In this document: in pieces, positions 12,505 through 50,923 of the stretch
Numbering within the stretch: the first letter of the stretch is position 1
How the letters are laid out: each line of letters opens with the position of its first letter
Source: an uncultured Chloroflexia bacterium
GTDB lineage: Bacteria > Chloroflexota > Dehalococcoidia > SM23-28-2
NCBI GenBank assembly: GCA_963701285.1
Contig: OY969584.1
Coordinates: forward strand, 627,250-691,249
Length of the DNA: 64,000 nucleotides
Direction of reading: 5' to 3'
Translations under genes and position numbers: made by a program
The notes under the pieces: generated by a model
Database searches by the model: none
Told to the model about the DNA's origin: nothing
What the model saw: the letters and a program-made list of their open reading frames with translations, nothing else

Positions 12505-13212
<708 letters not shown>

Positions 13213-14485: not shown

Positions 14486-17165
<2,680 letters not shown>

Positions 17166-32734: not shown

Positions 32735-34069
32735 CTAGAGGATCGGCAGGTAGCGTTTGATCTCGTAGTCGGTCACGTGGCGGCGGTAGTCACTCCACTC
32801 GATGAGCTTGTTAGTGATCAGGGTCTCGAAAAGGTGCTCGCCCAGGCAGCGGCGCAGCACGTCGCTCTTCTGCGCTTCCTCGATCGCTTCGTACAGGCTC
32901 CCCGGCAGGTGCTCGATGCCCCGACGCTTCCTCTCCTCCTCGGGCATGATGAAGACGTTCTCCTCCACCGGTTCGGGGCAGGGATACTCTTTCTCTATTC
33001 CCTCCAGGCCGGCCGCCAGTAGCACGGCGAAAACCAGGTAAGGGTTGCAGGCGGGGTCTGGGGCACGGTACTCGATGCGCGTTTCTTGCTCCTTCCCCGG
33101 CTTGTACTCGGGAATACGGACGAGGTCGGAGCGGTTGCGCAGCGCCCAGGAAAGATAGACGGGCGCCTCGTAGCCCGGCACCAGCCGCTTGTAGGAGTTG
33201 ACCCACTGGTTGGTGACCAACGTTATCTCGCGGGCGTGGCGGAGCAGGCCGGCGACGTAGCTCTTGCACAGCGCCGAGAGGTGCTGCGGGTCCTTGGGGT
33301 CGAAGAAGGCGTTGCGCTCCCCCCGGAACAGCGACTGGTGGACGTGCATGCCGGAGCCGTTCTCGTTGACCAGTGGTTTCGGCATGAAGGTGGCGTAGAC
33401 GCCCTGGGCCAGCGCCACCTCCTTCACCACCAGGCGGTAGGTCATCGTGTTGTCGGCCATGGTGAGGGCGTCGGTGTAGCGCAGGTCGATCTCGTGCTGG
33501 CTGGGGGCCACCTCGTGGTGGCTCGCCTCCACGCCGATGCCCATCTCCTCCAGAGTGAGGACGGTCTCCCGCCGCAGGTCGGTGGCGGCGTCCAGGGGCG
33601 TCTGGTCGAAGTAGCCGCCGCGGTCCAGGGTTGTCGTAGTCTCGGAGTTGGCGAAGTAGAAGTACTCCAACTCGGGTGCCACGTAGAACGTGTAGCCCAG
33701 GTCGGAGGCCCGTTTCAGGTTTCGCTTCAGGATGTAGCGGGGGTCGCCCTCGAACGGCTCGCCGCCGGGCAGGTAGATGTCGCAGAAGATGCGGGCCACT
33801 CGCTTCCTGTCGCGTGGGCGCCAGGGCAGGACGACGAAAGTGCTCGGGTCGGGCATGGCCACCATGTCGCTTTCGTCGATGCGGGCGAACCCCTCGATGG
33901 AGGAGCCGTCGAAGCCCATCCCCTCGTCCAGCGCCCCCTCCAGCTCCTCGACGGTGATGGCTACGCTCTTCAGGATGCCCAGGATGTCGGTGAACCAAGC
34001 GCGGATGAACTTGACGTCCTGCTCCTTGGCCATCTGAAGGACGTATTCCTTGCCTTCCTGATTGTTCAT
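32735..34069 (-). CDS. glnA: glutamine synthetase, type I (about 444-aa form)
   Basis: MNNQEGKEYVLQMAKEQDVKFIRAWFTDILG...GFDGSSIEGF...NGSGMHVHQSLF...[12 protein letters not shown]. Confidence 0.92.
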   Translation of the reverse strand: MNNQEGKEYVLQMAKEQDVKFIRAWFTDILGILKSVAITVEELEGALDEGMGFDGSSIEGFARIDESDMVAMPDPSTFVVLPWRPRDRKRVARIFCDIYLPGGEPFEGDPRYILKRNLKRASDLGYTFYVAPELEYFYFANSETTTTLDRGGYFDQTPLDAATDLRRETVLTLEEMGIGVEASHHEVAPSQHEIDLRYTDALTMADNTMTYRLVVKEVALAQGVYATFMPKPLVNENGSGMHVHQSLFRGERNAFFDPKDPQHLSALCKSYVAGLLRHAREITLVTNQWVNSYKRLVPGYEAPVYLSWALRNRSDLVRIPEYKPGKEQETRIEYRAPDPACNPYLVFAVLLAAGLEGIEKEYPCPEPVEENVFIMPEEERKRRGIEHLPGSLYEAIEEAQKSDVLRRCLGEHLFETLITNKLIEWSDYRRHVTDYEIKRYLPIL

Positions 34070-34160
34070 AACCCCAGCCTCCGATACAAGTGGCACCATC
34101 TTAGCGCAAGAGACCGTCAGAGGCCAGGCCCTTGGGGCCCGGCCTCATGTCCCTAGCAGC

Positions 34161-34218: not shown

Positions 34219-35662
34219 CTACACGTCGAAGTACATGTAGAACTCCCACGGGTGGGGGCGCAGGCGCAACGGGTCCACTTCGTGGTCGCGCTTGTACTCC
34301 AGCCAGACCTCCAGGACGTCGCTGGTGAACACCCCCTTCTTGACCAGGAACTCGTGGTCCTCCTCCAGCGCGTTCAGTGCCTCCTCCAGCGAGCCGGGAA
34401 CGGTGGGGATGGAGCGCTCCTCCTCGGCGCCGAGCTCATACGTGTTCTTGTCCAGCGGCGGGCCCGGGTCGATCTCGTTCTCGATGCCGTCGAGGCCGGC
34501 CATCAGCATGGCGGCGAACGCCAGGTATGGGTTGCAGGTGCCGTCGGGCGGGCGGAACTCCACGCGCTTGGTCTTGGGATTGTCGGTGTAGACCGGGATG
34601 CGCACGGCGGCGCTGCGGTTGCGGGCCGAGTAGACCAGGTTGACCGGCGCCTCGTAGCCGGGCACCAGCCGCTTGTAGGAGTTGGTGGTGGGGGCGCAGA
34701 GGGCCATGAGCGCCCGCGCGTGCTTCAAAAGGCCGCCGATGTAGTAGCTGGCGGTCTGGCTGATCAGGGCATAGCCCTTGGGGTCGAAGAAGACGTTCTC
34801 GCCCTTCTTCCACAAGCTCAGGTGGATGTGCATGCCGGAGCCGTTGTCCTCGAAGAGGGGCTTGGGCATGAAGGTGGCCACTTTGCCGCGCTTATGGGCG
34901 ACGTTCTTGACGATGTACTTGTACCACATGATCTTGTCGCCCATGCTCACCAGGGTGTCGAACTTCATGTCGATCTCGGCCTGGCCGGCGGTGGCCACCT
35001 CGTGGTGGTGCACCTCGATGGGGATGCCCACCTCGATCATCGTCAGGATCATCTCCGAACGGAGGTCCTGCAGGGAGTCGTTAGGGGGCGCCGGGAAGTA
35101 GCCTTCCTTGAAGCGCGGCTTGTAGCCCAGGTTCGGCTTCTCGTCGCGGCCGCTGTTCCACTCGCCCTTCGATGGAGTCGATGTAGTAGAAGCCGTACTG
35201 CTCGGTCTGGTCGAAGCGTATGTCGTCGAAGATGAAGAACTCCAGCTCCGGTCCCCAGAAGCTGGTATCGGCGATGCCGGTGGAGCTGAGGTATTCTTCC
35301 GCCTTCTTGGCGATGAACCGCGGGTCGCGGCTGTACGGCTCGCGGGTCAGCGGGTCGAAGATGTCACAGATCACGCTCAGGGTGGGGATCTCGCAGGCCG
35401 GGTCGACGCGAGCCGTGGCCGGATCCGGGATGAGGATCATGTCGCTCTCCTGGATCTTCTGAAAGCCGCGGATGCTGGAGCCGTCGAAGCCTACCCCTTC
35501 TACCCAGATGCTCTTGGTCAAGTCGTCCATCTCCGTCAGCTCCGACACGGGCATCGAGAAGTGCTGCCAGAGCCCCGGCAGGTCGTTGAACTTGAGGTCG
35601 ACGATCTGGATGTTGTTGGCCTTGATGAGGTTGAAGACCTGTTGCGCCTGTTCCGGTGTCAT
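34219..35662 (-). pseudogene. glnA: glutamine synthetase type I (about 470-aa form) interrupted by a single +1 frameshift near 35165..35167
   Basis: The N-terminal ORF (35081..35662) ends YYIDSIEG. Deleting one G from the GGG run restores [42 protein letters not shown], joining to ORF 34219..35052. Confidence 0.88.
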
Positions 35663-47658: not shown

Positions 47659-48576
47659 ATGGCTGACGTTCGATTCGACGGAAGGGTCGCCATCGTCACC
47701 GGGGCAGGCGGCGGGTTGGGCCGCAGCCATGCCCTGTTGCTGGCGTCGCGCGGCGCCAAGGTAGTGGTCAACGACCTGGGCGGCGCCGTGGACGGCACCG
47801 GGACGCCGAGCAGCGAGATGGCGAACAAGGTGGTGGCCGAGATCAAGGCCGCCGGCGGTGAGGCCGTCGCCGACGCCCATGGCGTGGACACCCCGGCGGG
47901 CGGCCAGGCCATCGTCAAGACCGCACTCGATGCCTTCGGGAAAGTCGACATTCTCATCAACAACGCCGGCATCCTCCGCGACAAGACCTTCATGAAGATG
48001 GAGGACGAGGACTGGAACAAGGTCATGGCCGTGCACCTTAACGGCGCCTACAACGTCACCAAGGCCGCCTTCCCCGTTATGCGGGAGAACAACTACGGCC
48101 GCATCATCATGACCACGTCCAACACTGGGCTGTACGGCAACTTCGGCCAGGCCAACTACGGCGCGGCCAAGCTGGGCCTGGTGGGCTTCATGAACACCCT
48201 CAAGCTGGAAGGCGCCCGCTACAACATCCTCGTCAACACCATCGCGCCCATCGCCGGCACGCGCATGACGGCGACGGTCATGCCGCCCGACATGGTCGAG
48301 AAGCTCAAGCCGGAATACGTCTCGCCAATGGTGGTCTACGCCTGCTCCGAGGAATGCACCGATAGCGGCGTGATCTTCACAGCCGGCGCTGGCTATTTCT
48401 CGCGCGCTGTCATGGTGGAGGGACCGGGCATCGCCCTGCCGGCCGCCAAGGGCATCACTCTCGAGCAGATCCGCGACCGCCTCGCGGACATCAAGAAGCT
48501 GGAGGGCGCCCAGCCCTTCAACCAGTCCAACGAAGAGGTCGCCCGCATCATCTCCGCTCTCTCAGCGGCGGGCTAA
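47659..48576 (+). CDS. SDR-family oxidoreductase (3-hydroxyacyl-CoA dehydrogenase / MFE-2-like)
   Basis: Contains RVAIVTGAGGGLGRSHALLLASRGAKVVVNDLG...NNAGILRD...YGAAKLG. Confidence 0.85.
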   Translation: MADVRFDGRVAIVTGAGGGLGRSHALLLASRGAKVVVNDLGGAVDGTGTPSSEMANKVVAEIKAAGGEAVADAHGVDTPAGGQAIVKTALDAFGKVDILINNAGILRDKTFMKMEDEDWNKVMAVHLNGAYNVTKAAFPVMRENNYGRIIMTTSNTGLYGNFGQANYGAAKLGLVGFMNTLKLEGARYNILVNTIAPIAGTRMTATVMPPDMVEKLKPEYVSPMVVYACSEECTDSGVIFTAGAGYFSRAVMVEGPGIALPAAKGITLEQIRDRLADIKKLEGAQPFNQSNEEVARIISALSAAG

Positions 48577-48599
48577 GACCCCGGAGGTCGAATGCAGAA

Positions 48600-48628
48600 G
48601 GGCGGGGCGTCTCTTGGACGCCCCGCCC
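48600..48628 (+). terminator. 12-bp perfect GC hairpin after the SDR gene
   Basis: GGGCGGGGCGTC-tcttg-GACGCCCCGCCC, 24 nt after the stop. No clear U-tract. Confidence 0.6.
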
Positions 48629-48907
48629 GCTCTGTCCTACCGCTCCCGGATTGGCCGACGCCGCCACCCAGGAAACCGTGGGCAGCATCTCTCGCGTGAA
48701 CCTGCGTGAACCGCGCCTCGGTTCTTGCATCCGGCGTCAATTGCGCCAGGCGGACGGCGGCTATAGAATCCTAGGAGCGCTACGCTGTAGACGCCAGTCT
48801 AGCCTGACCTTGCGGGACCTCCCCGCTGACATTCTGAGCGTGACGAAGAATCTGGCCTGCCCGTAGCGCGAGGATGGTTTGACCTTGCGGAAGCGAGGTG
48901 ACGAGTC

Positions 48908-49444
48908 GTGAAGCGCTATCTTGCCTGCCTGCTGGGCGCCGCGGTGCTGATGGTCCTCCTAGCGGCGGCCTGCGGCGGCGACGAAGGACAGCCCAGCCCG
49001 GCCGCCACCGCCAGCCCCACCTCTACCCCCACGGGCCCCCCCTTCGCCTTCGAAGGGCCGGTGGGCATCGACCTCAGCACCTACGGCATCTTCTTCCAGC
49101 AGGGCCAGCCGATATCCTTCACCATCACCATCGCCGCCGCCGAGCCTATCACCTTGTACTACCGCACCACCCAGCGCTACGACATCGTCGTCGCCGATTC
49201 GCAGGGCAACGAGGTGTGGCGTTGGTCCAAAGACAGGAGCTTCGGCCAGACGCTGGAGCAGGTCACCCTGACGGCGGGCGAAACTCTTACCTTCAACGAG
49301 AACTGGGACCAGCTCGGCAACGACGGTCAGCCCGTGCCTCCCGGCAACTACCAGTCAACGGCCACCAGCACTCACTGCGACGCCAACTACGAGAACTGCG
49401 GCCAGCTCAGCGTCTCCCGCACCCTCCAGATCCGCGCGCCGTAA
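48908..49444 (+). CDS. lipoprotein with BsuPI-like (intracellular proteinase inhibitor) domain
   Basis: Lipobox LAAAC. Contains QRYDIVVADSQGNEVWRWSKDRSFGQTLEQVTLTAGETLTFNENW, typical of the BsuPI fold (recognised by eye). Confidence 0.6.
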   Translation: MKRYLACLLGAAVLMVLLAAACGGDEGQPSPAATASPTSTPTGPPFAFEGPVGIDLSTYGIFFQQGQPISFTITIAAAEPITLYYRTTQRYDIVVADSQGNEVWRWSKDRSFGQTLEQVTLTAGETLTFNENWDQLGNDGQPVPPGNYQSTATSTHCDANYENCGQLSVSRTLQIRAP

Positions 49445-49598
49445 GGGGCGTTGCCGCTGCCCGTAGTGCGCCACAGGCCGGCCCCACCGCTCGTCCTGAG
49501 CGTGTCCGAAGGGCGAGCGGTTCGACGAGGCGTTGCCGCCGGCCGGGCCGGCGCCGATAATGTTCTAGGTAGTTTTTCTCCACTCGAGGCAGAATGAC

Positions 49599-50378
49599 AT
49601 GAGCAAGCTCGCTGACAAGATCCGCAAGGTCACCCGCGTGGAGCCGGCGCCCCTGGGCTTCGGCGTTTCCGCCGCCCGCCCGCGTGCCCCCTCGCTCCTC
49701 CTGCTGGTGCATGGGCCCGCTTCTGTCCGGCCGCCCGCCGACCTGGCCAGCCACGGCCTGGACGCCATCCTCCTTTCTCTCAACCCGGAGAAGGACACCG
49801 CCGAGGCCGCGCGCTGGGCCAAAGCTGCCGGGGACATCCCCTGCGGCCTGCACGTCCCCGCCGTCGCCAGGGACACGGTCGCCGACCTGAAGCAGGCGGG
49901 CATCGACTTCCTGGCCTTTGAGGCCGAGTCCGCCAGCGCGGACGCCCTCCTGGACACGGAGATGGGCTACGTCCTCACCCTGGCTGGCGAGCCGTCGGAT
50001 GCCATCCTGCGGGCCATGGCCGACTTCACCCTGGACGCCCTCTGGCTGGCCGACTGGCGCGGCCCCCTTACGCTGCGCTCGGCGCTCGAGCTGCGGCGTA
50101 TCTACCTTCTGGCCCGCATGCCCCTGCTTGTGCCCGTTCGGCCCGATATCGGCGCCGGCGACCTGGAGTGCCTGCGCGACGTCGGCGTGGCGGGGGTGAC
50201 GGTGGACGGCCACGACGCCGCTGCCTGGGGCCGGTTGGCCTCGCTGCGCCAGGCCATCGACGGTCTGCCGCCGCGGGCGCGCCGCCGTGAGGAGCGGCCG
50301 GACGCAGTGCTCCCCGCCAGCGCACTGGTCCCCTCATCGGCCGAGGAGGAAGAGGAGGAGGGGGAGGACTTCCCCTAG
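49599..50378 (+). CDS. hypothetical protein with acidic C-terminal tail
   Basis: 259-aa ORF with high GC3. Tail is [11 protein letters not shown]. No family recognised. Confidence 0.5.
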   Translation: MSKLADKIRKVTRVEPAPLGFGVSAARPRAPSLLLLVHGPASVRPPADLASHGLDAILLSLNPEKDTAEAARWAKAAGDIPCGLHVPAVARDTVADLKQAGIDFLAFEAESASADALLDTEMGYVLTLAGEPSDAILRAMADFTLDALWLADWRGPLTLRSALELRRIYLLARMPLLVPVRPDIGAGDLECLRDVGVAGVTVDGHDAAAWGRLASLRQAIDGLPPRARRREERPDAVLPASALVPSSAEEEEEEGEDFP

Positions 50379-50845
50379 GTCCTGCCCGCCTCCAGCTCTT
50401 GCACGATGCGCAAGGACTCCCGCGCGTGGATCTCCATGTCGGTCTCGCTCTCGATGACGCCGCGGATGATCCCCTGCTTGTCGATGACGTAGGTCGTGCG
50501 CCGGGCGGTGTAGCGCTCCGGGTGCCAGACGTCGTAAGCCTTAATCACCTCGTTCTGGGGCCAATCGCTGAGGATGGGGAAAGGAAGGTTCAGACTCTTG
50601 GCGAAGATGCCCGCTGACGGCCAGGGGTCAATGCTGATACCGAGGACCTCGGTATTGGCCTTCTGGAACTCCGCGTAGGCGTCCCGGAAGGCGCCGAGCT
50701 CCTTCTCTCAGCCGCCGGTAAAGGCCAGCAGGTAGAAGGCGATCACCACGTTCTTCTGGCCGCGATAGCTCTCCAGGCTCCATTTCTGGCGCTCGCCGTC
50801 CATCAGGGTGAACTCCGGCGCCTTATCGCCCACTTTCAGGGCCAT
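50375..50845 (-). CDS. AhpC/TSA (BCP-like) peroxiredoxin with in-frame TGA at the peroxidatic Cys position; candidate selenoprotein; absent from ORF track
   Basis: ATG at 50845 follows [50 protein letters not shown]-[TGA 50710..50708][61 protein letters not shown]...[12 protein letters not shown]...; TAG at 50377..50375. Confidence 0.7.
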
Positions 50846-50923
50846 ACTCGCCTCCTTCCTACGAATCGGGCCTCATCTTCCATTGTCCAGGACGGAGGGA
50901 GAGTTGGCAAGGCGCAGGCGAGC

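What the first reader, a model, noticed from the sequence alone, without database searches (positions are those of the whole stretch)
50375..50845. Unannotated peroxiredoxin with TGA exactly at the peroxidatic cysteine: candidate selenocysteine enzyme
The ORF track shows nothing on the minus strand here. From ATG 50845 (GGAGG 7-8 nt upstream) to TAG 50375 the frame is open except for one TGA at 50710..50708.

The 45 aa before the TGA (..[24 protein letters not shown]) and the 110 aa after it ([32 protein letters not shown]) form one continuous AhpC/TSA BCP-type peroxiredoxin. The TGA falls exactly where the family has its catalytic Cys (F-[ST]-x-x-C-x-x-E). A Cys/Sec swap at a redox-active Cys is the classic selenoprotein signature, and Sec peroxiredoxins are known (PrxU of Eubacterium acidaminophilum).

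Twelve nt downstream of the UGA the mRNA can fold GGCG-CC-UUCC-GG-GA-CGCC (plus coordinates 50678..50695). This can be extended by CUCGGCG/CGCGGAG, which is a plausible position for a bacterial SECIS, but I cannot score it.

The stop codon overlaps the convergent gene's stop (CTAG, 50375..50378).

Caveat: this assembly contains indels elsewhere. This event is different because it is a substitution-type in-frame stop with the frame preserved.
Basis: partly seen in the sequence, partly recalled or inferred. Interest (0 to 1): 0.75.

Follow-up and report, generated by a model that had tools for sequence, protein, structure and literature searches.

The report
Unannotated selenocysteine peroxiredoxin gene
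This is a real but unannotated gene for a peroxide-destroying enzyme whose catalytic residue is selenocysteine, encoded by a TGA "stop" codon; the same arrangement is kept in dozens of related Chloroflexota bacteria, but enzymes of this kind have been known since 2001.

Summary
Window 50845..50375 (minus strand) is a 156-codon AhpC/TSA peroxiredoxin gene with one in-frame TGA (50710..50708). That codon sits exactly in the peroxidatic-Cys column (TxxU motif; it aligns to Cys45 of M. tuberculosis AhpE).

It is not an assembly error. In total 74 loci, counting the window, carry TGA at this codon and never TAA or TAG. All 11 orthologues found in named genomes are Chloroflexota/Dehalococcoidia MAGs. 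Cys forms (TGC/TGT) occur only in distant relatives and in one nested revertant. pN/pS is 0.19 on both sides of the TGA.

A downstream mRNA hairpin is conserved (window 50692..50658, −19 kcal/mol, apical loop 30 nt after the UGA). It shows compensatory substitutions, and it is absent from most Cys forms, including the revertant. It lacks the canonical loop G.

No selA, selB, selD or tRNA-Sec lies in the window or the related loci I hold, so the decoding machinery could not be checked. The literature shows that Dehalococcoidia use selenocysteine heavily.

This is a new member (AhpE-like, no cysteine at all) of the known selenocysteine-peroxiredoxin family, of moderate-to-low interest. Side points: the active-site Pro is replaced, and public databases mis-annotate this clade.

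The parts
50375..50845 (-). Complete coding sequence of a 156-codon AhpE-like peroxiredoxin. It runs from ATG 50845 to TAG 50377..50375 and reads through one UGA (Sec46). The product contains no Cys.
   Evidence: Translation. Pfam PF00578 E = 1.3e-36 over profile positions 1-122 of 124. Best solved structure is M. tuberculosis AhpE, E = 2e-28. Pooled pN/pS is 0.186 for the N-terminal part and 0.190 for the C-terminal part, against 14 orthologues.
50851..50855 (-). Shine-Dalgarno-like GGAGG, 5 nt upstream of the ATG.
   Evidence: Read directly from the sequence. Orthologues start at the equivalent M-A/P-L-K-V-G-D.
50708..50710 (-). In-frame UGA, codon 46, inferred to encode selenocysteine. It occupies the peroxidatic position of the T-x-x-U motif.
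   Evidence: Aligns to AhpE Cys45. The codon is TGA in 74 loci, and TGC/TGT only in L022 and distant homologues.
50658..50692 (-). Conserved mRNA hairpin and candidate bacterial SECIS: GCCUUC.GGGAC.CC-UACGC-GG.GUUCC.GAAGGC. It starts 18 nt after the U of UGA, and its apical loop lies 30 nt after the UGA.
   Evidence: Energy is -19.0 kcal/mol, and it forms in the local MFE fold. z = -2.54 against synonymous-codon shuffles. 89% of cells pair in the window's clade, against 29-60% for slid registers. The homologous hairpin in the main clade has 5 pairs with compensatory changes, and RNAalifold recovers it independently.
50717..50719 (-). Thr43 codon (ACC), the conserved Thr of the T-x-x-U/C peroxiredoxin motif.
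   Evidence: All loci have Thr here, except 3 with Ser.
50498..50500 (-). Arg116 codon (CGC), which aligns with the conserved catalytic Arg of AhpE.
   Evidence: Alignment '[10 protein letters not shown]' against 'ianRgtfvvd'; coordinates.
50729..50731 (-). Leu39 codon (CTG), at the position of the normally conserved Pro of the P-x-x-x-T-x-x-C motif.
   Evidence: 70 of 74 Sec forms have L/I/V/A here, while all 13 Cys forms have Pro (the window was counted twice in that table, and I have corrected for it here).

Best explanation
The minus strand 50845..50375 encodes one continuous 156-residue peroxiredoxin of the AhpE-like type. Its peroxidatic residue is selenocysteine (U46), encoded by UGA 50710..50708.

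Inferred decoding. While the ribosome translates the mRNA, the hairpin at 50692..50658 acts as a bacterial SECIS. It recruits SelB.GTP.Sec-tRNA(Sec), so the UGA is read as Sec rather than stop.

Inferred chemistry. The selenolate, activated by Thr43 and Arg116, attacks the peroxide O-O bond and becomes a selenenic acid. The window's protein has no cysteine at all, so it is a '1-Sec' enzyme, and an external thiol reductant must recycle it (a thioredoxin- or glutaredoxin-like protein, or a low-molecular-weight thiol).

Shown here:
- the gene structure;
- the position of the TGA in the catalytic column;
- conservation of the TGA across relatives;
- selection on both halves of the gene;
- conservation and covariation of the hairpin.

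Inferred, not shown:
- actual Sec insertion;
- peroxidase activity;
- the identity of the reductant.
For: 1. Family and catalytic column. Pfam AhpC-TSA, E = 1.3e-36. In the AhpE alignment, codon 46 falls on the peroxidatic Cys, and Thr and Arg are conserved.

2. Conservation of the TGA. The codon is TGA in 74 loci (59 distinct contexts) and never TAA or TAG. All 11 orthologues found in named genomes are Chloroflexota/Dehalococcoidia MAGs. A 35%-identity clade (L090-L093) also has TGA.

3. Sec/Cys pairs. L022, L088, the AhpE-like P0009 and BCP-like homologues have TGC/TGT at this codon.

4. Selection. pN/pS is 0.19 on both sides of the TGA.

5. Hairpin stability. The segment 15-56 nt after the UGA folds at a mean of -19.3 kcal/mol in Sec forms. 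All 59 fall below their synonymous-shuffle mean (mean z = -1.87). The 8 Cys forms average -10.5 kcal/mol (mean z = +0.25).

6. Covariation in the main clade. 88% of cells pair, against 27-54% for slid registers. Five pairs show compensatory changes (reached in 1 of 500 shuffles). The covariation score is 0.162 against 0.085 (0 of 500). RNAalifold predicts the same helix without being given it.

7. Natural control. L022 is nested in the Sec clade (73% identity to L018). It has TGC, has lost the hairpin (-10.8 kcal/mol) and has regained Pro.

8. Three of the four published bSECIS criteria are met (criteria from PMC13188914).

9. TGA is an ordinary stop elsewhere in the window (5 of 25 confident genes), and no other coding frame runs through a TGA. 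The genetic code is therefore not reassigned.

10. Lineage plausibility. Dehalococcoidia MAGs with 46 and 49 selenoproteins are on record (PMC13326102). Chloroflexi selenoproteins and 8/4-type tRNA-Sec have been reported (PMC1794560, PMC5389517).
Against: - No selA, selB, selD or tRNA-Sec was found in the window or in 769 kb of window plus related loci. The source genome is not in the searchable collections. The decoding machinery is therefore unverified for this organism.
- The hairpin's apical loop (UACGC) has no G in its first two positions. Only 22 of 59 family members meet that canonical criterion.
- The window's own clade is too uniform to show compensatory changes.
- The shuffle controls do not correct for relatedness among the sequences.
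- The assembly does contain frameshift-type errors elsewhere.
- The canonical active-site Pro is missing (Leu39).
- There are no experimental data for this clade.
Confidence: 0.88

Rival explanations
1. Assembly error or recent pseudogene. The TGA would be a miscalled or mutated TGC/TGT, and the gene either encodes an ordinary Cys peroxiredoxin or is dead.
For: The window has frameshift-type breaks in valS and in a second glnA copy, so errors exist in this assembly. One relative (L001/L002) carries a 5'-truncated remnant of the gene.
Against: Independent assemblies from many samples have TGA at the same codon: 73 further loci, with no TAA or TAG. The 16 closest relatives (85-94% amino-acid identity) all have TGA. 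pN/pS is 0.19 on both sides of the TGA. A structured element co-occurs with the TGA and is lost in the Cys revertant.
Confidence: 0.02
2. The UGA is recoded, but not as selenocysteine. It could be read as Cys through a SelB-like/selC*-type system, as Trp by near-cognate read-through, or under a variant genetic code.
For: JGI gene calls for four homologues show Trp at this site (P0003, P0012, P0013, P0015). Cys-inserting selC* tRNAs with dedicated SelB copies exist in some bacteria (PMC5389517). The hairpin lacks the canonical SelB-binding loop G. No Sec machinery could be seen.
Against: The 'W' is a gene-caller artefact: L004 has TGA at that codon and does not translate to its W-containing product under table 11. 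TGA ends 5 of 25 confident genes in the window, and no other coding frame runs through a TGA. Trp or Gly at the peroxidatic position would inactivate the enzyme, yet the gene is under purifying selection. selC* systems were reported from delta-proteobacteria and a few metagenomic contigs thought to be Nitrospirae or delta-proteobacteria, not from Chloroflexi (PMC5389517). Sec decoding is well documented in Dehalococcoidia (PMC13326102).
Confidence: 0.04
3. Genuine termination. Translation would stop at the UGA, giving a 45-residue peptide, possibly with a separately initiated C-terminal fragment, as the database gene calls imply.
For: Gene callers annotate 45-aa plus 103-107-aa ORFs in relatives. 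Many relatives have an ATG 4 codons after the TGA.
Against: In the window that codon is CTC, and the first possible restart is a GTG 54 codons further on. Neither fragment would contain the catalytic residue or a complete thioredoxin fold. The conserved ATG (Met) in relatives is simply the residue of the 'E-[LM]' position, which is Leu in many others. Keeping the stop in the catalytic column across lineages down to 35% identity has no rationale under this model.
Confidence: 0.02
4. Relic in this particular genome. The family is a true selenoprotein family, but this organism would have lost Sec decoding, so its copy is no longer expressed full-length.
For: No Sec machinery is visible in the 64 kb. 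Loss of the selenoprotein trait is common in bacterial evolution (PMC1794560).
Against: The window's copy keeps an intact frame, its RBS, the catalytic Thr and Arg, and a strong hairpin (-19 to -20 kcal/mol, z = -2.54). Its divergence from close relatives is dominated by synonymous changes. Sec genes are usually unlinked to their client genes, so their absence from 64 kb says nothing.
Confidence: 0.03

Closest known systems
Sec-containing peroxiredoxin family (Prx, PF00578, T-x-x-U motif). The prototype is PrxU of Eubacterium acidaminophilum (Sohling et al. 2001). Further members: 43 genes in the Sargasso Sea metagenome (PMC1088965) and 12 genes from 5 independent Cys-to-Sec events in the 2006 genome survey (PMC1794560).
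   Same: It has an AhpC/TSA fold. Sec is encoded by an in-frame UGA exactly at the peroxidatic position, in a T-x-x-U motif. Cys-containing homologues exist. A stem-loop lies inside the coding region just downstream of the UGA.
   Different: It is not a PrxU orthologue: NCBIfam NF040737 scores 54 bits against a cutoff of 270. It is shorter (156 aa) and AhpE-like. The window's protein has no Cys. The Pro of P-x-x-x-T-x-x-U, which the 2026 review describes as highly conserved, is Leu here. The hairpin loop lacks the canonical G.
AhpE (Rv2238c) of Mycobacterium tuberculosis, a 1-Cys peroxiredoxin (PDB 1xvw, 4x0x, 5id2).
   Same: It is the closest solved structure (E = 2e-28 over residues 3-129). 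The length is the same. It shares the 'laFTG-x-C/U-x-x-EL' active-site helix and the catalytic Arg. Like AhpE, it is a one-catalytic-residue type with no resolving Cys.
   Different: AhpE uses Cys and keeps the active-site Pro ('FFPLAFTGIC'). The window's protein has Sec and Leu ('[10 protein letters not shown]'). AhpE comes from Actinobacteria, while this clade is Chloroflexota.
BCP/PrxQ thioredoxin-dependent thiol peroxidases (for example E. coli Bcp; NCBIfam NF006960).
   Same: This is the best NCBIfam match, and the same COG-level group that earlier surveys assigned to marine Sec-Prx (COG1225, PMC1088965).
   Different: It scores 74 bits against a cutoff of 140. The typical BCP resolving Cys at +5 is absent from the window's protein. 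The main sister clade has a Cys at +6 instead.

Membership tests
Sec-containing peroxiredoxin (Prx selenoprotein family, PF00578, TxxU) | AhpC/TSA (thioredoxin-fold peroxiredoxin) domain | tested here: met
   PF00578, E = 1.3e-36, 125.7 bits against a cutoff of 26, profile positions 1-122 of 124.
Sec-containing peroxiredoxin (Prx selenoprotein family, PF00578, TxxU) | In-frame UGA in the peroxidatic-Cys column (T-x-x-U) | tested here: met
   Codon 46 aligns with AhpE Cys45, and the motif is F-T-G-G-U.
Sec-containing peroxiredoxin (Prx selenoprotein family, PF00578, TxxU) | Sec/Cys pairing: homologues carry Cys at the same position | tested here: met
   L022, L088, L009/10/12, L015 and L094-100 have TGC/TGT. 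P0009 and AhpE have Cys.
Sec-containing peroxiredoxin (Prx selenoprotein family, PF00578, TxxU) | UGA conserved among orthologues, with the coding sequence conserved on both sides | tested here: met
   TGA in 74 loci and never TAA or TAG. pN/pS is 0.186 upstream and 0.190 downstream.
Sec-containing peroxiredoxin (Prx selenoprotein family, PF00578, TxxU) | bSECIS geometry: stem-loop downstream of the UGA, loop 3-9 nt, 16-37 nt from UGA to loop, MFE of -7.5 kcal/mol or lower (PMC13188914) | tested here: met
   In the window the loop is 5 nt, the spacing is 30 nt and the energy is -19.0 kcal/mol. Across the family: loop 59/59, MFE 59/59, spacing 55/59.
Sec-containing peroxiredoxin (Prx selenoprotein family, PF00578, TxxU) | bSECIS loop: a G in the first two apical-loop positions | tested here: not met
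   The window's loop is UACGC. Only 22 of 59 family members meet the criterion. BSepDB reports that 12.6% of its selenoprotein entries lack a canonical SECIS (PMC13326102), so this does not exclude membership.
Sec-containing peroxiredoxin (Prx selenoprotein family, PF00578, TxxU) | Sec-decoding machinery (selA, selB, selC, selD) in the same genome | not testable with these tools
   Only 64 kb is available. None is in the window or in 769 kb of window plus related loci. The source genome is not in the collections. A SelA-profile search was swamped by Enterobacterales.
Sec-containing peroxiredoxin (Prx selenoprotein family, PF00578, TxxU) | Selenium actually incorporated (75Se labelling or mass spectrometry) | not testable with these tools
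   This needs an experiment.
PrxU equivalog (NCBIfam NF040737) | Score at or above the curated cutoff of 270 bits | tested here: not met
   54.3 bits.
AhpE-type 1-Cys peroxiredoxin | Closest similarity to AhpE, with catalytic Thr and Arg conserved and no resolving Cys | tested here: met
   AhpE is the top match among solved structures (102 bits, against 85 or less for BCP structures). Thr43 and Arg116 align. The protein has no Cys.
AhpE-type 1-Cys peroxiredoxin | Canonical P-x-x-x-T-x-x-C active-site motif | tested here: not met
   The Pro position is Leu39, and the catalytic position is Sec rather than Cys.
BCP/PrxQ (NCBIfam NF006960) | Score at or above the cutoff of 140 bits, with a resolving Cys at CP+5 | tested here: not met
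   74.4 bits. The window's protein has no Cys at +5.

The most novel reading that the evidence does not exclude
This Chloroflexota clade may be a distinct, selenium-adapted peroxiredoxin subtype. It would be an AhpE-like '1-Sec' enzyme whose otherwise highly conserved active-site Pro has been replaced (L/I/V/A-x-x-x-T-x-x-U). The one lineage that went back to Cys has Pro there. Its SECIS lacks the canonical loop G and keeps its position while its pairing register slides between clades (i+j = 68, 70 or 71). Together these would imply a lineage-specific mode of SelB-SECIS recognition and an active site re-tuned for selenium.
Probability: 0.3. Interest if true: 0.5.

Novelty: new member of a known kind. 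Interest (0 to 1): 0.33.

Why it matters
It adds a well-supported selenoprotein gene to a stretch of genome that reads as empty under standard gene calling.

It also exposes a systematic annotation failure. In the public protein collections searched here, the members of this clade that I examined appear as 45-aa plus roughly 105-aa fragments, as bare C-terminal pieces, or with a false Trp at the catalytic site. No NCBIfam model reaches its cutoff for this protein. A dedicated model would recover an antioxidant selenoenzyme across many Chloroflexota/Dehalococcoidia MAGs and improve estimates of selenium use in sediments and soils.

Biochemically, the matched natural pairs (Sec with Leu, against the Cys revertant with Pro) are a ready-made system for asking how a peroxiredoxin active site adapts to selenium.

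The discovery itself, a Sec-for-Cys swap in a peroxiredoxin, is textbook, so a specialist would not be surprised.

Tried and rejected
1. Its energy is -8.2 kcal/mol. One pair is broken in 7 of 17 close relatives. It does no better than shuffles, and it does not form in the local MFE fold.

2. Searches for Sec machinery all came back empty:
- ARAGORN and Rfam on the window found only tRNA-Thr.
- ARAGORN on the loci found no tRNA-Sec.
- tblastn with E. coli SelA, SelB and SelD against the window plus all loci (769 kb) gave no hits.

3. Attempt to find SelA in the MAGs that carry the gene. A profile of E. coli and Aquifex SelA returned 8000 candidates, and the top 120 were all Enterobacterales. 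That gave no lineage-specific probe. I ran no further search on this.

4. Identifying the source genome failed. The exact-match look-up of the window's LeuB found nothing. The genome scans found no hit above 61% identity.

5. The first genome scan, with the single protein, reached only distant Cys homologues at 31-37% identity. The family alignment was needed to reach the orthologues.

I relied on the AhpE sequence alignment instead.

7. A scan of the window for other genes that read through a TGA found only antisense frames and one ordinary boundary between two genes in the same frame, at 12505..12507.

8. A single fixed column-wise structure for all 59 contexts was rejected, because the pairing register differs between clades. 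I analysed each register group separately.
Full report
**1. The observation**

On the minus strand, ATG 50845 to TAG 50377..50375 is a 156-codon frame interrupted by a single TGA at 50710..50708, which is codon 46. A GGAGG sits at 50855..50851, 5 nt before the ATG. Plus-strand 50375..50378 reads CTAG, so the stop overlaps that of the convergent 259-aa gene. Mechanical ORF listing sees only a 45-aa and a 57-aa piece here, which explains why nothing is annotated.

With Cys substituted at codon 46, the product matches Pfam AhpC-TSA over essentially the whole profile (E = 1.3e-36). The best match among solved structures is M. tuberculosis AhpE (Rv2238c, E = 2e-28). In that alignment codon 46 falls on the peroxidatic Cys ('laftGiCqgEl'), and the catalytic Thr (Thr43) and Arg (Arg116) are in place.

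**2. Not an error or a pseudogene**

The nearest database proteins are C-terminal fragments of 85-107 aa, or full-length calls with 'W' at the catalytic position. Their DNA shows why. L004 has TGA where the product shows W, and it does not translate under table 11. L005 and L007 are split into 45-aa plus 106/107-aa ORFs, exactly like the window.

A family alignment of the post-TGA region (A1) retrieved two sets of loci:
- 11 loci from named genomes, all Chloroflexota/Dehalococcoidia MAGs;
- 73 metagenome loci, 16 of them 85-94% identical to the window's protein.

The codon in the catalytic column is TGA in 74 loci counting the window (59 distinct 66-nt contexts). It is never TAA or TAG. It is TGC or TGT only in L022 and in more distant homologues. 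A clade at only about 35% identity (L090-L093) also has TGA.

Against 14 close orthologues, pooled pN/pS is 0.186 for the 45 codons before the TGA and 0.190 for the 110 codons after it. Both halves are under the same purifying selection, as expected for one translated protein.

TGA is still a normal stop in this genome. It ends 5 of 25 confident genes, and no other coding frame in the window runs through a TGA. A reassigned genetic code is therefore not the explanation.

**3. The RNA element**

Every Sec-form mRNA folds into a hairpin that starts about 18 nt after the UGA. It is built from the codons for (C/A)-F-R-D paired with those for F-x-x-A. In the window this is 50692..50658: GCCUUC.GGGAC.CC-UACGC-GG.GUUCC.GAAGGC, at -19.0 kcal/mol, with the apical loop 30 nt after the UGA. 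It is the structure that forms in the local MFE fold.

I used controls suited to a coding region:
- The segment 15-56 nt after the UGA has a mean MFE of -19.3 kcal/mol in the 59 Sec contexts.
- All 59 fall below the mean of their synonymous-codon shuffles (mean z = -1.87; window -20.1 kcal/mol, z = -2.54).
- The 8 Cys contexts average -10.5 kcal/mol (mean z = +0.25).

The hairpin stays in place while its pairing register differs between clades. The sum i+j is 70 in the window's clade, 71 in the largest clade, and 68 in L007 and L090/L093.

In the 38-sequence main clade:
- 88.3% of cells form pairs, against 27-54% for slid registers.
- Five pairs show changes on both sides, reached in 1 of 500 shuffles.
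- The covariation score is 0.162 against 0.085, reached in 0 of 500 shuffles.

Some of these changes alter the protein yet keep the pairing, such as V...D (GUC:GAC) to L...E (CUC:GAG). RNAalifold, given no structure, returns the same helix with 4 compensatory pairs.

The window's own clade pairs at 89%, against 29-60% for slid registers, but it is too uniform to covary.

One of its pairs is broken in 7 of 17 close relatives, and it scores no better than shuffles. I reject it as the conserved element.

Scores against the published bSECIS model (PMC13188914) come:

| Criterion | Met |
|---|---|
| Loop 3-9 nt | 59/59 |
| MFE of -7.5 kcal/mol or lower | 59/59 |
| UGA-to-loop spacing 16-37 nt | 55/59 |
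| G in the first two loop positions | 22/59 |

For the spacing criterion, at least the window's miss is a script artefact: the script picked a minor hairpin, and the main hairpin has a spacing of 30 nt. The loop-G criterion is not met in the window. The same review, and BSepDB (87.4% of entries canonical; PMC13326102), accept that a minority of bacterial selenoprotein genes have non-canonical elements.

**4. A natural control**

In a neighbour-joining tree without bootstraps, the Cys-form L022 (a Chloroflexia MAG) sits deep inside the Sec clade, at 73% identity to L018. That suggests a secondary Sec-to-Cys change. In that one lineage the hairpin has decayed (-10.8 kcal/mol, z = +0.29). This is what is expected if the hairpin exists to decode the UGA.

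**5. Mechanism**

Shown:
- the gene, its catalytic column, conservation of the TGA, selection on both halves, and the conserved structured element.

Inferred from established knowledge of bacterial Sec decoding and peroxiredoxin chemistry:
- SelB.GTP.Sec-tRNA(Sec) binds the hairpin and inserts Sec at UGA46.
- The selenolate, activated by Thr43 and Arg116, reduces peroxides and becomes a selenenic acid.
- The window's protein has no Cys, so an external thiol must recycle it, as in 1-Cys AhpE.
- Sister clades carry a Cys at +6, or at both +5 and +6, which could form a selenenylsulfide.

The neighbouring genes are a short-chain dehydrogenase, a BsuPI-like lipoprotein, an unknown 259-aa protein and a small TPR protein. 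They suggest no dedicated reductant.

**6. What could not be tested**

None of selA, selB, selD or tRNA-Sec is in the window or in the 769 kb of window plus related loci. These genes are normally unlinked to their client genes, so this result says little either way. The source genome is not in the searchable collections. An attempt to obtain a lineage-specific SelA probe failed.

Lineage-level support comes from the literature:
- Two Dehalococcoidia MAGs are among the ten most selenoprotein-rich bacteria, with 49 and 46 genes (PMC13326102).
- Chloroflexi selenoproteins were already counted in 2006 (PMC1794560).
- SelB occurs in Anaerolineales single-cell genomes (PMC4959059).
- Unusual 8/4-type tRNA-Sec have been described in Chloroflexi (PMC5389517).

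**7. Comparison with what is known**

'Peroxiredoxin (Prx), PF00578, TxxU' is on the list of experimentally verified prokaryotic selenoprotein families. The prototype is PrxU of Eubacterium acidaminophilum (Sohling 2001, cited in PMC13188914). [quoted passage not shown] It arose by at least 5 independent Cys-to-Sec events (PMC1794560).

The window's gene works like these enzymes and meets the family's sequence-level criteria. It is not a PrxU orthologue (54 bits against a cutoff of 270), and it passes no NCBIfam cutoff. Its closest characterised relative is the 1-Cys enzyme AhpE. I found no paper in the library that describes an AhpE-type Sec-peroxiredoxin. I could not query BSepDB itself, so this clade may already be catalogued there.

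**8. Verdict**

This is a new member of a known kind: solid, useful for annotation, and of modest scientific surprise (interest 0.33).

The most novel reading still open has a probability of about 0.3. Under it, this is a selenium-adapted, Pro-less, 1-Sec AhpE-like subtype with a non-canonical, register-sliding SECIS.

Noticed in passing
window 50729..50731 (Leu39); loci L003-L100: The active-site Pro of the peroxiredoxin P-x-x-x-T-x-x-C motif, normally highly conserved, is replaced by L/I/V/A in 70 of 74 Sec forms. It is present in all 13 Cys forms, including L022, which is nested inside the Sec clade. Only the distant Sec clade L090-L093 keeps Pro. This may be co-adaptation of the active site to selenium, but it rests on few independent evolutionary events.
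   Followed up: partly
window 14823..17165 and 34219..35662: valS is broken into fragments: Pfam tRNA-synt_1 profile positions 104-202 fall in one ORF and 220-392 in the next. A second glnA copy is split into two ORFs, next to an intact glnA at 32735..34099.
   Followed up: partly
whole window; loci L017-L082: TAG is the commonest stop codon (window 26 TAG, 12 TGA, 6 TAA; the related Chloroflexota contigs show the same trend). That is unusual for genomes of 64-68% GC, where TGA normally dominates. The counts come from crude ORF calls. The pattern is unexplained; it may relate to heavy use of UGA for Sec in this lineage.
   Followed up: partly
L001 3454..3711 and L002 882..1139: One relative carries only a 5'-truncated remnant of the gene (an 85-aa ORF). 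It lacks roughly the first 66 codons, including the UGA and the hairpin. An unrelated 124-aa gene lies immediately upstream, and a MerR gene follows.
   Followed up: partly
proteins P0001-P0016; loci L004, L005, L007: Public gene calls for this clade are consistently wrong. Some are split into 45-aa plus roughly 105-aa ORFs, some are C-terminal fragments only, and some are full-length with Trp at the Sec position (P0003, P0012, P0013, P0015; checked on the DNA only for P0012 in L004, and probably due to code-4 metagenome gene calling). No NCBIfam model reaches its cutoff.
   Followed up: yes
alignments A2/A3; 66 nt after the UGA in 59 contexts: The SECIS-like hairpin keeps its position while its pairing register shifts by 1-3 nt between clades (i+j = 70, 71 or 68). 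So a hairpin at this place is conserved rather than specific base pairs. [quoted passage not shown]
   Followed up: yes
window 12505..12507 (minus strand): A TGA separates two long coding stretches that share one frame. The upstream sequence ends '...RRSYLGY', and the downstream sequence opens '...ELFLQQVLTGLATGSVYGL'. From memory these resemble the end of a LivF-type ABC ATPase and the start of a LivH-type permease. I read this as an ordinary stop between adjacent genes, not a selenoprotein.
   Followed up: partly
window 47659..50845 compared with L001 3454..6299: The short-chain dehydrogenase, BsuPI-like lipoprotein and unknown 250-259-aa protein lie next to the prx gene both in the window and in a distant relative (L001). 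The relative also has a MerR regulator in between, which the window lacks. The 259-aa neighbour (49599..50378) has no Pfam match and ends in an acidic tail.
   Followed up: no
window 50711..50845 compared with 50378..50707: Synonymous divergence from close orthologues is about half as high in the 45 codons before the UGA (pooled pS 0.136) as in the 110 codons after it (0.301), while pN/pS is the same. The sample is small. This may be noise, or an extra constraint on the 5' mRNA.
   Followed up: no
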